Positions 4,140 through 46,975 of a stretch of 64,000 bases of DNA are shown piece by piece. The notes beneath the pieces are model-generated. The model saw nothing but the letters and a program-made list of their open reading frames with translations. It searched no databases and had not been told where the DNA came from. Position 1 is the stretch's first letter; each line of letters opens with the position of its first letter. A program made the position numbers and the translations under genes. Source of the DNA: Eledone cirrhosa (Eukaryota); the NCBI GenBank assembly GCA_964016885.1, contig OZ024742.1:103416001-103480000 (forward strand), in the 5' to 3' direction.

Positions 4140-4395
4140 TATTGAGTTAAGAACTCAATTAAATAGCTCTAAGAAAAAAGCTTTTCCGAGCCGTACAATA
4201 TAATTGAATAAACAAGAGAGATGAACAGTATTATAAACATACATGTGTTCGAATCGTAAGGACTAAAATTTGGTGGGGTGAAAAAATACTATGTTGCTGT
4301 AGTTAGTATTTTTTCACCCCAGCAAATTTTAGTCCTTACGATTCGAACACATGTATGTTTATAATAGTGTTCATCTCTCTTGTTTATTCAATTAT
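4140..4395. repeat. Fold-back element: about 93-bp arms (about 4198-4290 / 4303-4395) plus about 55-bp unpaired left tail, flanked by (TA)n
   Basis: Near-perfect reverse-complement arms; homologous motifs at 46550-46975. Confidence 0.85.
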
Positions 4396-4435
4396 ATATA
4401 TATATATATATATATATATATATATACATATATTT

Positions 4436-4594
4436 GGCGCTAGGAAGGGCATCCAGCCATAGAAAACCAGCCAGAAACTGTCCTATATGAGCGAGACATG
4501 GTCACTCGACCCAACTTGCCTCTAAATGGGACAAACCTGTCTAACCCATGCTAGCGTGAAAGATAAACGTTAAACGAGGATGATGATGATGATG
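4436..4594 (+). mobile_element. RTE-family 3' end fragment with (GAT)n tail
   Basis: GGAAGGGCATCCAGCC...CGTTAAACG(ATG)n shared with the RTE 3' end at 6360-6510. Confidence 0.7.
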
Positions 4595-4911
4595 ATATAT
4601 ATATATATATACATATATATATATATATATATATATATATATATATATGTATATATATATATATATATATATATATATATATATATATATATTCATATAT
4701 ATATATATATATGAAAACAGGGGGAAAGAGACGATTATGAGGAAGAAAAATTTTTTTTTTCCTTTTTTTGTCTCTCTCTCTTTTTTCTGGGTTAGAAAAT
4801 GATTAAAACGAAATGTTTTACTTTGTGTGAAGTGTTAAGGTATTAGTTGATTTATTTATTATTTAACAATGGCATTTATTTATCTATTTATCTATTTAAT
4901 TATTGTCTATT

Positions 4912-5565
4912 ACATACATATATATATATATACATACATATATATATATACATATATATATATACATATATATATATACATATATATATATACATATATA
5001 TATATACATACATATATATACATACATATATATACATACATATATATATATACATATATATATATATATATACATATATATATACATATATATACATACA
5101 TATACATACATATATATATACATATATATACATACATATATATCTACATATATATACATATATATATATCTACATATATATACATATATATATATCTACA
5201 TATATATACATATATATATATCTACATATATATACATATATGTATATACATACATATATATATACATATATATACATATATATATATACATACATATATA
5301 TATATACATACATATATATATATACATACATATATATATATACATACATATATATATACACATACATATATATATATACATACATATATATATACATATA
5401 TATACATATATATATATATACATACATACATATACATATATATATATATACATACATATATATATATATACATACATATATATATATGTATGTATATATA
5501 TGTATGTATATATATATATGTATGTATATATATATATGTATGTATATATATATATGTATATATAT
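4912..5565. repeat. (TA)n/(TACA)n compound microsatellite
   Basis: Direct reading. Confidence 0.97.
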
Positions 5566-6510
5566 GTAGAGGGAGGGGGAGGGTGCTCTGAAAGTACTGT
5601 AGCTAGAGTCAGAACTGGTTGGAAAAAGTTCAGAGAGCTTATACCACTATTAGCCGCTAAAGGGTTCTCCCTAAAAATGAAAGGCAGGTTGTACGATGCC
5701 TGCATACGAACAGCAATGTTACATGGCAGTGAGACCTGGGCATGGTGTGCAGAGGATATACGCAGACTAGAGAGGAACGAAGCTTGCATGCTCCGCTGGA
5801 TGTGTAACAGTAATATACGTGAACGGCAAAGCATAAATGAACTAAGGAAAAAATTAGAGATAAGAGGGATCAGATGTTGTTTACTCGAGAGAAGGCTACG
5901 TTGGTATGGACACGTGATGCGCATGAAAGTCGATAGCTGTATAACAAAGTGCAGGGCAATAAAGATAGACGGTAGCCACGGAATAGGCAGACCTAGAAAA
6001 ACCTGGGACGAGCTGATAAACTCCGACCTCACACACTTACACCTCTCCAAGACAATGTCACTGGACCGAGACCTTTGGCGGTACTCAGTAACAGAGAAGA
6101 CCCGCCTTACCTAAATATATAGTAAAACCTACTCCAGCCAGTAGGCATCTCTAACAAAATACACCCCGTCCCACCACCACCACCCCCACCCACACCACCC
6201 CGTTCTATGTAAAGTTAAGATGGTGCCGCGCCATCCAGGCCGAAACAAATGAGATCGTGTAGGTGTCACGACAAAAAAACACACAGTCCACGCTGTAATG
6301 TGGCCGTGTAGGCAACACGGTAAAAACCTCCCAGACCCACACTGTAAATGTGGTTGGTGTTAGAAAGGGCATCCAACTGTAGAAAACCTGCCAGACAGTC
6401 CTATGCGAGCAAGACAATCACTCTTGCCTCAAGTGGGACTACCCCCGTCCAAACCCATGCAAGCGTGGAACACGGACGTTAAACGTTGATGATGATGATG
6501 ATGATGATGA
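5566..6510 (+). mobile_element. 5'-truncated RTE-clade LINE (ORF C-terminus to 6114, 3' UTR, (GAT)n tail)
   Basis: [22 protein letters not shown]...MLHGSETW...[12 protein letters not shown]...GRPRKTW; paralogous to the 6588-8630 ORF. Confidence 0.9.
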
Positions 6511-45832: not shown

Positions 45833-45899
45833 TATTTTATCTGATGAGGACGTACTGTTGAACTTAACTCAGTACCTCTGAAATATGTATAATAAAATA
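45833..45899 (+). ncRNA. Type-I hammerhead ribozyme
   Basis: TATTTTAT CTGATGA gga-cGTACTG...CAGTAC-ctct GAAA TATGT ATA ATAAAATA. Confidence 0.78.
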
Positions 45900-46070
45900 T
45901 ACTTGATCACAAGAATATCTATTTTGTTAATATTTTGAATTAATATTAATAACTCTGGAACACCTTTTTTGTGGAGTGCTTCCAATCTATTGTAAAACTC
46001 ATTCTTTGATGTATTAATTGAATCTTGTTTAACTTTCAAATATATATATATATATATATATATATATATA

Positions 46071-46540
46071 TTTGTTTTGCAAGGTTTTTTATATGAAATC
46101 GTGTGTCGAAACAAATATTGGTATACTTGGGGAGGGTCATTTTGTTGTAATAATATTGCCAGAAATAATAACAGAACACACTCACTGTTTGGTTGGTTTT
46201 CGCTTCTGTATCTTTTATATCGCCATAGTTAATTCATTTGGTCCTCAATGTTTATCAGATAAACAGATAAAATAAAAATGGCGTAGGCATACAATACAAC
46301 AGGAGGAACATAATAGTACCACTGATGATGTTGCAGATGTGCAACGAAAGAATTTTGTTAGACTATATATATGTGTTTATATCTGTATTTTTGACCGTTG
46401 GTCAGTCAATGATAAACATTGAGGACCAAATGAATTAACTATGGCGATATAAAAGATACAAAAGCGAAAACCAACCAAACAGTGAGTGTGTTCTGTTATT
46501 ATTATTACAACAAAATGACCCTGCCCAAGTATAACAATAT
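46071..46540. mobile_element. Small fold-back element related to 17352-19290 (arms about 46114-46258 / 46410-46540, left tail, one hammerhead in the spacer)
   Basis: Shares the tail GCAAG..TTTAT.TGAAATCGTGTGT.GAAAC and the end ATGACCCT.CC.AAGTATAACAATATA with the GIY-YIG palindrome. Confidence 0.82.
46314..46365 (+). ncRNA. Minimal type-I hammerhead ribozyme (imperfect stem I)
   Basis: CTGATGA T GTTGCA gatg TGCAAC GAAA GAAT TT; outer TAGT/ACTA pairing. Confidence 0.7.
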
Positions 46541-46549
46541 ATATATATA

Positions 46550-46975
46550 TAGTAAGGAGAGACGAACACAAATATATAGCTACACGTGTTCAAATCACAA
46601 GGCATAGAGACCGCCAGGGTAAAGAGAATATTGACTAAATCAAGAAGATAAATTGAGAAAAACGAACCTACTATGATGACTATCATGTACCCGGACAGTT
46701 TATGGGTAGCGCTGTTTCGCAAAATTCAGTGAGGAGAACTATTGGCGTGGTGCTTCACAATATTCATTTTACTACTATGTTTAGTAGAAGACTAAATAAC
46801 CTTACGTTCTATTCGTTCCTCCCGGAACGAATAGAACGTAAGGTTACTAAAAAAATAGCAGCCAGAACCATTCAATATATGAAAGCTCAACAAAAGCGAT
46901 CAAGCAAATTTATCAAAAGTATATATTGAGTTAAAAACTCACAATAGTTTTTAACTCAATATATACTTTTGATAT
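46550..46975. mobile_element. Relative of the 4140-4395 fold-back family, ending in an about 64-bp palindrome (46911-46974)
   Basis: Minus strand CCTT..GATT.GAACAC.TGTA...GTGTTC.TCTCTC colinear with 4334-4380; shared TATTGAGTTAA.AACTCA. Confidence 0.55.

What the first reader, a model, noticed from the sequence alone, without database searches (positions are those of the whole stretch)
4140..46975. A graded family of (TA)n-embedded fold-back elements with a one-sided tail and hammerhead ribozymes
Seen: six insertions (4140-4395, 12991-16315, 17352-19290, 42446-42850, 42890-46040, 46071-46540) share one architecture. The element's 3' end is duplicated in inverted orientation with both 3' ends pointing outward, only one arm carries an extra 39-95-bp tail, and both flanks are (TA)n. 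Content shrinks from RT+GIY-YIG, to GIY-YIG only, to noncoding hairpins; four of the six carry canonical type-I hammerheads. Known: Penelope-like elements have inverted pseudo-LTRs, tails and minimal hammerheads. Inference: several unrelated PLE lineages here integrate by one microsatellite-directed mechanism that yields hairpins, and the smallest may be non-autonomous retrozyme-like units.
Basis: partly seen in the sequence, partly recalled or inferred. Interest (0 to 1): 0.85.

Follow-up and report, generated by a model that had tools for sequence, protein, structure and literature searches.

The report
Penelope-like inverted insertions with one tail
The six mirror-image inserts are real but are cut-short copies of several ordinary Penelope-like jumping genes and of one small ribozyme-bearing non-coding family, all sitting in TA repeats, and their near-strict one-tail-per-insert pattern suggests that both cut DNA strands likely start copying the RNA, at two fixed points.

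Summary
All six fold-backs, one-sided tails, (TA)n flanks and four hammerhead motifs are present; a seventh element lies at 46551-46977. They are not one graded family. E2-E6 are 5'-truncated inverted insertions of five ORF-bearing Penelope-like (PLE) families: two Hydra-type, three with Nematis-type linkers. E1 and E7 belong to related non-coding units of about 510 bp; full E1 units carry a canonical type-I hammerhead, so E1 fits a non-LTR retrozyme.

The architecture is published (inverted copy, tail at one end, TA targeting, hammerheads). What this genome adds is counts. In the E4 family, inverted pairs were tailed+untailed 41, both tailed 2, both untailed 0. The untailed arm was longer in 22 of 31 unequal pairs. 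29 of 80 arms stop at one site, often after a non-genomic G that is likely a cap copy. This argues against simple fold-back and favours twin priming at two fixed start sites on a capped sense RNA (inferred). Short-read data show the same junction types, so an assembly artefact is unlikely. Known kind, with a useful mechanistic read-out.

The parts
4144..4397 (.). E1: inverted insertion of the 3' third of a 506-bp non-coding unit; tailed arm on the left (minus), untailed arm 4288-4397 (plus, 16 nt longer); the family's hammerhead lies upstream of the part kept here
   Evidence: 1403 first-look candidates in G000
12991..16316 (.). E2: inverted insertion; long untailed arm (minus) with 5'-truncated RT + GIY-YIG ORF 13795-15123; short tailed arm 15121-16316 (plus), tail 16275-16316
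   Evidence: family has an 887-aa ORF in a 3451-bp tandem unit
16092..16120 (+). Non-canonical hammerhead-like motif of the E2 family (core lacks C3 and A9); activity untested
   Evidence: same core in 51 of 51 matched arms of held loci
17354..19290 (.). E3: inverted insertion truncated within the ORF just upstream of the endonuclease; tailed arm left (tail 17354-17409), untailed arm 18346-19290
   Evidence: family has a ~1000-aa RT+EN ORF (L092, L100)
19093..19127 (+). Type-I hammerhead core of E3 (mirror copy 17573-17607, minus)
42446..42851 (.). E4: short inverted insertion of a Hydra-type PLE terminal repeat; untailed arm left, tailed arm right, tail ~42763-42851; centre lies at the family's 5'-stop hot spot
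   Evidence: 8003 exact tail-motif and 16835 arm-motif matches
42664..42718 (+). Type-I hammerhead of E4 with palindromic stem III (mirror copy 42492-42546, minus)
42887..46040 (.). E5: inverted insertion of a second Hydra-type family; untailed arm 42887-43783 (minus); tailed arm ~43780-46040 (plus) = end of endonuclease + long AT-rich 3' UTR + tail 45949-46040
   Evidence: relative L200 has RT 54% identical to the E4-family ORF
45841..45891 (+). Type-I hammerhead of E5 (mirror copy 42948-42998, minus)
46072..46540 (.). E6: inverted insertion; short tailed arm 46072-46257 (minus), longer untailed arm 46258-46540 (plus) with hammerhead core 46322-46355
   Evidence: relatives L276, L280, L288, L293 carry ORF pieces 50-68% identical to the E3-family ORF
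46551..46977 (-).

Best explanation
The inserts are 5'-truncated, inverted insertions of several Penelope-like retroelement families in (TA)n tracts, and each is likely built by twin priming: both target strands are predicted to be nicked, and each nick would prime reverse transcription of sense RNA, one at the tail end (S1) and one 41-92 nt upstream (S2). Shown: family membership, two fixed outer ends, one arm ending at each, independent 5' truncation of the two arms, TA-like microhomology at S2, and matching subfamily variants on both arms. Inferred: the two cDNAs stop independently and are joined head to head by microhomology or by a jump of the RT onto the other cDNA's 3' end, which would also supply the second strands. 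In the E4 family many cDNAs run off a fixed RNA 5' end 258 nt above S1, likely a capped transcription start in the terminal repeat, which gives ~400-bp near-perfect hairpins. The hammerhead is copied through uncut, so it does not set the ends. The non-coding E1/E7 units carry their own S1/S2 and are likely mobilised in trans by a PLE protein.
For: E4 family, 67 loci taken from the first 100 arm-motif hits on contig C1: 43 pairs with both ends classed = 41 tailed+untailed, 2 both tailed, 0 both untailed (independent choice expects 21/12/10; p=2e-9). Of 40 non-tandem pairs the untailed arm is longer in 22, the tailed in 9, equal in 9 (p=0.03); 8 tailed arms are <=100 nt; 36 have TA on both flanks. 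A further 35 of 35 resolvable pairs among 40 more loci are tailed+untailed (partly read by eye). E3 family: 13 of 13. E1 family: partner arm untailed in 15 of 18 inverted copies, fully tailed in none (query included the tail). Genome counts give about two arms per tail. 29 of 80 arms stop at -262..-253. Genome-wide the base before that site is G in 2570 and A/T in 2848 cases, with 6267 read-through copies, against G in 13 of 79 at other truncation points. Shared variants are mirrored on both arms: 33 cases with no one-armed variant shared among the 30 best hits, and 69 v 10 in 23 unbiased pairs. In vitro, an anole PLE nicks and extends both strands and starts at two sites that bound the tail (PMC11167929).
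Against: No intermediate was seen and no RNA data were available. 25 arm entries had no classed partner and 6 pairs had one unclassed end; 2 both-tailed pairs occur there, and 2 more among selected E5 loci. 18 of 43 G bases by script (about 21 after allowing for a reference variant) could come from the partner arm, so the cap reading is likely, not proven. The E3 family's clustered stops show no such G in the few junctions seen. Mirrored variants cannot separate one RNA from two RNAs of the same source. PMC11167929 found no strand preference of start site in vitro, and priming at a site not homologous to the target, whereas S2 here is TA-like. No autonomous partner sharing the E1/E7 tail was found.
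Confidence: 0.75

Rival explanations
1. One cDNA (or an antisense transcript) folds back and primes on itself to make a hairpin, and the endonuclease then cuts the intermediate at the element's internal TA-like site, leaving the tail on one side.
For: Proposed in print: self-priming on an antisense template (PMC3846280, passages) and a tail from EN-mediated resolution (PMC8557442). Arms carry the same variants, S2 resembles the TA target, and many centres are near-perfect palindromes.
Against: A hairpin copied from a tail-primed cDNA needs the tailed arm to contain the other arm; the untailed arm is longer in 22 of 31 unequal pairs and some tailed arms lie wholly within the tail. The extra G at the fixed 5' stop, on both arms of some copies (L054, L340), points to a sense template.
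Confidence: 0.15
2. The small hairpins (E4, E6, E1) are self-contained non-autonomous units that spread as whole palindromes, like MITEs or retrozymes, in a size series derived from one ancestor.
For: Hundreds of near-identical ~400-bp E4 hairpin candidates; E1 and E7 families are non-coding.
Against: No arm asymmetry is inherited between copies (0 of 45 one-armed variants shared). Centres differ from copy to copy. E4 and E6 ends continue into ORF-bearing elements. The families are unrelated in DNA except E3/E6 and E1/E7.
Confidence: 0.04
3. The palindromes are fold-back artefacts of sequencing or assembly.
For: E2 and E4 arms are identical. No listed read or contig spans the whole E4 hairpin.
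Against: E1, E3, E5 and E6 arms differ. Ends fall at the same two family-specific sites in thousands of copies. Contigs of a public run show many different inversion joints at 42599, and raw Illumina reads show TA directly after the untailed end (82 and 78 reads).
Confidence: 0.01
4. The two arms are separate single-arm insertions into the same TA tract, later homogenised by gene conversion.
For: Single-arm copies of both end types exist, and different families cluster in one tract (E4-E5-E6-E7).
Against: Arms abut with short microhomology or a few added bases and no TA tract between them. Independent events would give both-tailed and both-untailed pairs. 74 of 79 private variants are on one arm only, so conversion is slow.
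Confidence: 0.03

Closest known systems
Endonuclease-bearing Penelope-like elements with inverted pseudo-LTR and optional tail (Craig et al. 2021, PMC8557442; Arkhipova et al. 2013, PMC3846280)
   Same: RT plus C-terminal GIY-YIG, partial tandems, 5'-truncated inverted copy, tail at one end only, hammerhead in the terminal repeat, microsatellite targets.
   Different: Tails here run 41-92 nt (30-40 bp in those papers). One-sidedness is described there as frequent or optional; here it is nearly strict among inverted pairs and the untailed arm tends to be longer.
Hydra clade PLEs, including Hydra-1_Obim and Penelope-13_HM (PMC8557442 section 11 and supplementary tables)
   Same: E4/E5 families: DKT, CxCx5C linker, no CCHH, CxxC and CxH around the last EN motifs, (TA)n insertion, canonical hammerhead, inverted 5'-truncated copy.
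   Different: Longer unit (3709 bp), RWI rather than RWK, about 8000 tail-bearing copies. No sequence comparison with the published consensus was possible.
Anolis Poseidon element PAc in vitro (Frangieh et al. 2024, PMC11167929)
   Same: Two RT start sites bounding the tail, both strands nicked and extended, AT-rich targets, hammerhead cleavage not needed.
   Different: The main text read does not link this to inverted insertions and reports no strand bias; here one start per arm is the rule and S2 resembles the target.
Metazoan non-LTR retrozymes (Cervera and de la Pena 2020, PMC7229834; Li et al. 2026, 10.64898/2026.07.22.740005)
   Same: E1: non-coding unit with canonical type-I hammerhead, tandem arrangement, co-occurring with PLEs.
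   Different: 506 bp. Dispersed copies of under two units, not long arrays. Copies bear the PLE inverted-plus-tail signature, which the passages read do not describe. RNA and circles untested.
LINE-1 twin priming (recalled, from no call)
   Same: Two target nicks prime two cDNAs, giving a 5' inversion.
   Different: The second priming site here is fixed and close to the first, so the arms overlap and form inverted repeats.

Membership tests
EN+ Penelope-like element | Single ORF with RT followed by GIY-YIG endonuclease | tested here: met
   Pfam RVT_1 + GIY-YIG for E2; GIY-YIG for E3 and weak RVT_1 for its family ORF. The E4-family ORF has no Pfam hit but aligns to the E2 ORF at E=2e-9.
EN+ Penelope-like element | Partial-tandem pseudo-LTR, inverted 5'-truncated copy, tail at one end | tested here: met
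   Tandem units of 3709 bp (E4) and 3451 bp (E2) with the tail continuing toward the ORF; inverted pairs.
EN+ Penelope-like element | Type-I hammerhead motif in the terminal repeat | tested here: met
   Motif scan for E3-E6; E2 non-canonical; Rfam models do not detect them.
EN+ Penelope-like element | Hammerhead self-cleavage activity | not testable with these tools
   Needs in vitro transcription.
Hydra clade (E4, E5 families) | DKT, CxCX5C linker, no CCHH, flanking CxxC/CxH, (TA)n target | tested here: met
   L091 ORF read against PMC8557442 section 11; RWK appears as RWI. E5 is assigned through its relative L200, 54% identical in RT.
Hydra clade (E4, E5 families) | Placement in the Hydra clade on an RT tree | not tested
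   No named reference proteins were held; 37 homologues carried no informative names.
Nematis clade (E2, E3, E6 families) | [quoted passage not shown] | tested here: inconclusive
   By eye the linkers match the short Nematis/PNL2 rows of Fig. S2 (v); no tree built.
Non-LTR retrozyme (E1 family) | Non-coding unit with canonical type-I hammerhead | tested here: met
   Longest stop-free frame 71 codons; core CTGAGGA in 13 of 15 arms found by the scan, with 6-7 of 7 stem-I pairs and a 4-bp stem III ending in GUC.
Non-LTR retrozyme (E1 family) | Tandem copies with a hammerhead in consecutive units | tested here: inconclusive
   Only partial tandems of up to ~1.4 units in 30 loci; no copy with two complete hammerheads was seen.
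Non-LTR retrozyme (E1 family) | Expressed linear and circular RNA | not testable with these tools
MITE / DNA foldback element | Terminal inverted repeats at both ends, copied as a unit | tested here: not met
   One-sided tail, variable centres, no inherited arm asymmetry.

The most novel reading that the evidence does not exclude
Penelope-like elements integrate by strictly asymmetric twin priming: a dimeric RT-endonuclease starts one cDNA at each of two fixed RNA sites from opposite target strands, copies capped sense RNA to its cap, and each RT then jumps onto the other cDNA's end, so that inverted repeat, one-sided tail and second strands come from one reaction. The E1/E7 retrozymes ride this same reaction from linear transcripts, which would be direct genomic evidence that animal non-LTR retrozymes are mobilised by PLE proteins without rolling-circle copying.
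Probability: 0.4. Interest if true: 0.65.

Novelty: new member of a known kind. Interest (0 to 1): 0.42.

Why it matters
How PLEs make inverted repeats with a one-sided tail is stated as unresolved (PMC8557442, PMC3846280, PMC11167929), and so is the partner that mobilises animal non-LTR retrozymes (PMC7229834; bioRxiv 10.64898/2026.07.22.740005). This genome holds thousands of young copies whose ends discriminate between models, and apparently intact ORFs (807, 887, ~1000 aa) for an in vitro test. For annotation, the small hairpins should be filed as PLE stumps, not as MITEs, miRNA genes or new families.

Tried and rejected
Rfam: no hammerhead hit, and none among the 150 of 301 rows shown, where TA-driven miRNA matches dominate. 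My first reading of the E4 centre as flip/flop isomers of a replicating hairpin was dropped: an unbiased sample showed that it only reflects which arm is longer. A test for two different RNA templates within E2 or E3 found none: E2 arms are identical and E3's 4 differences are private; the 36 mismatches came from masking. No cross-family chimeric pair was evident among unpaired E4 arms read by eye. No autonomous element sharing E1 sequence among five ORF loci. Sequencing runs: no RNA holder listed, which says nothing about expression. Read-level checking was obtained for E4 only. Protein homologue search gave no useful names. Literature searches for twin priming, two templates, template switch or cap-derived G in PLEs listed no paper with that model; subscription papers (for example the 2005-2008 PLE papers) and the bioRxiv supplements were not visible, so absence from print is not established.
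Full report
Observation. Self-BLAST of the window and direct reading confirm all six inverted pairs, each with an extra 41-92 nt beyond one arm and (TA)n on both sides. Arm differences are 2 (E1), 0 (E2), 4 (E3), 0 (E4), 18 (E5) and 3 (E6) substitutions. A motif scan finds type-I hammerhead cores in E3, E4, E5 and E6. 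E4 and E5 have self-complementary stem III sequences that pair between two copies in co-folding, the dimer-type design described for PLE hammerheads (PMC4209133, passages). Rfam does not list them. A seventh element, E7 at 46551-46977, has the same build. The elements lie between exons of a host gene with DUF5578 matches at 3657-4031 and 38881-39246, or beyond them. The host is a 3.0-Gb animal genome that I did not identify.

What the elements are. Each has many relatives in G000: first-look candidates 1403 (E1), 1719 (E2), 102 (E3), 449 (E4), 1464 (E5), 4710 (E6), 730 (E7) (lower bounds). Following them upstream shows ORF-bearing parents. E4 is the terminal repeat of a 3709-bp tandem unit with an 807-aa ORF bearing the Hydra-clade motifs DKT, CxCx5C and no CCHH. 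E5's tailed arm begins in the last ~40 codons of a second Hydra-type endonuclease, whose RT in L200 is 54% identical to the first. E3 belongs to a ~1000-aa ORF family, E6 to a sister family whose ORF pieces are 50-68% identical to it, and E2 to an 887-aa ORF in a 3451-bp unit. The E2 and E3 linkers resemble the short Nematis type by eye; no tree was built. The size gradient is therefore 5' truncation across five families. E1 is different: a 506-bp unit with no frame over 71 codons, whose full copies carry a canonical hammerhead (core CTGAGGA in 13 of 15 arms found, 6-7 of 7 stem-I pairs, ACAG/CTGT stem III, GUC site), laid out like the Hydra hammerheads tabulated in the supplement of PMC8557442. 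E7's family keeps stem III and has a different, fully pairing stem I with a variant core (8 arms found). That a U3-A8 pair can replace C3-G8 is recalled, not tested.

Genome-wide pattern in the E4 family. A 25-nt tail motif occurs 8003 times and a 21-nt arm motif 16835 times. I took the first 100 arm hits on contig C1 and examined 67 loci covering them. Of 49 inverted pairs, 43 had both ends classed: 41 tailed+untailed, 2 both tailed, none both untailed (p=2e-9 against independent choice); 6 had one unclassed end. 25 arm entries had no classed partner, and at least 2 of these proved to have a tiny tailed arm. Among 40 non-tandem pairs, 36 have TA on both flanks; the untailed arm reaches further upstream in 22, the tailed in 9, and 9 are equal; 8 tailed arms are 100 nt or shorter. 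In 40 further loci chosen by the G-start motif, 35 pairs were resolvable and all were tailed+untailed. I corrected 4 script calls of 'both untailed' and 6 unclassed ends by eye from the printed flanks; 5 loci stayed unresolved. The rule also holds in E3 (13 of 13 inverted copies, window included) and E1 (partner untailed in 15 of 18, none fully tailed). Two both-tailed E5 loci were seen, picked because both strands had tail hits. A few ends abut non-TA sequence (L024, L040, L128, L230), so TA is a preferred target, not an obligatory addition.

The arms are made at insertion. Among the 30 best E4 hits, shared variants were mirrored on both arms (33 cases) and none of 45 one-armed variants was shared between copies (L017 carries one subfamily variant on one arm only). 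In 23 unbiased pairs, common variants were mirrored 69 times and one-armed 10 times, while private variants were one-armed 74 times and mirrored 5 times. Whole hairpins are not being copied as units.

A fixed 5' stop. 29 of 80 arms end at -262..-253 relative to the tail end, equally on tailed (15) and untailed (14) arms. The genomic base before the site is C. Genome-wide, arms with G there number 2570 and with A/T 2848, beside 6267 that read through (junctions with C were not counted). At other truncation points G follows in 13 of 79. Of 43 such G bases inspected, 18 by script could be supplied by the partner arm and 25 could not (about 21 and 22 after allowing for a variant in the reference). 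None of the 43 arms continued into the ORF. The likely reading is run-off at a capped transcript start; cap copying as an extra G is recalled from other retroelements. Arms pass through the hammerhead site, 44 nt above S2 and 133 nt above S1, so cleavage does not set the ends, as found in vitro (PMC11167929).

Mechanism. Published ideas are self-priming on an antisense template (PMC3846280, passages) and endonuclease resolution of an intermediate (PMC8557442, passages and section 11). A hairpin copied from a tail-primed cDNA cannot give a longer untailed arm or a tail-only arm, and the extra G points to sense RNA. Frangieh et al. (PMC11167929, parts 1-2 of 4 read) showed that a PLE protein nicks and extends both strands and starts at two sites bounding the tail. 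Putting one start on each strand explains the outward 3' ends, the one-sided tail, the independent truncation and the head-to-head joints. That step is inferred. Whether one or two RNA molecules are used is open.

Artefact check. On E4, contigs of run X1 show many different joints landing at 42599, raw reads of X18 and X19 show TA directly after 42761 (82 and 78 reads), and 96 reads from one start in X18 show a strand switch between 42599 and the tail. No listed record spans the whole hairpin, and X1 may come from the assembled sample. Read-level support was not obtained for the other elements.

Comparison and verdict. The inverted copy, tail at one end, hammerhead and (TA)n targeting are all described, including a Hydra family in an octopus genome. 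Retrozymes as PLE derivatives are proposed (PMC7229834, passages; bioRxiv 10.64898/2026.07.22.740005, parts 1-3 of 5; its supplements were not seen). Searches for twin priming or cap-derived G in PLEs listed nothing of the kind, within an open-access library. Earlier AI notes from other genomes report similar stumps; they are not independent evidence. Verdict: real, new members of a known kind, with a quantitative signature that makes an open mechanistic question testable. Interest 0.42.

Noticed in passing
window 46551-46977: Seventh element (E7) of the same build, from an older ~514-bp non-coding family related to E1, with a variant hammerhead core and a fully changed but pairing stem I.
   Followed up: yes
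window 10706-11032, 26481-26880, 28074-28481, 29451-29856: A ~400-bp unit repeated head to tail with long degenerate TA arrays between copies (94-98% identical); no hammerhead by my scan. Similar sequence flanks an E4 arm in L224.
   Followed up: no
window 9258-12992, 16316-17352, 23089-25354: Kilobase-scale (TA)n arrays peppered with CA/TG; the one at 23089-25354 lies beside a (CAT)n-tailed repeat and appears to interrupt the endonuclease region of a LINE (ORFs 20061-22764). Origin unexplained.
   Followed up: no
window 49783-50267 and 51367-51967: Two elements with related terminal inverted repeats; the second holds an IS1595/ISXO2-like DDE transposase remnant (51659-51898, Pfam E=1e-9), the first holds only a TA array.
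   Followed up: partly
window 6591-9256 (minus): LINE with RT and an internal PHD finger; related fragments at 5575-6114.
   Followed up: no
window 3657-4031 and 38881-39246 (minus); 56927-57694 (plus): Host exons matching DUF5578, so E1-E3 likely lie in introns; a 255-aa DUF829 frame further on.
   Followed up: partly
window 16092-16120; E2 family loci L103-L132, L193-L196: A young family with an intact ORF whose hammerhead-like motif lacks two core bases in all 51 matched arms: a decayed or variant ribozyme.
   Followed up: partly
L009, L011, L026, L228, L268, L326, L328: Short re-copied stretches at inversion junctions (the last 5-20 nt of an arm repeated), suggesting RT slippage at the cDNA end.
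   Followed up: no
window 18989-19050 and 46258-46290; loci L074-L087, L274-L296: 5' stops in the E3 and E6 families cluster just upstream of a shared AAAATGGCG motif, which resembles a YY1 site (recalled): a candidate promoter element.
   Followed up: partly
window 62014-62490: Helitron helicase-like fragment.
   Followed up: no
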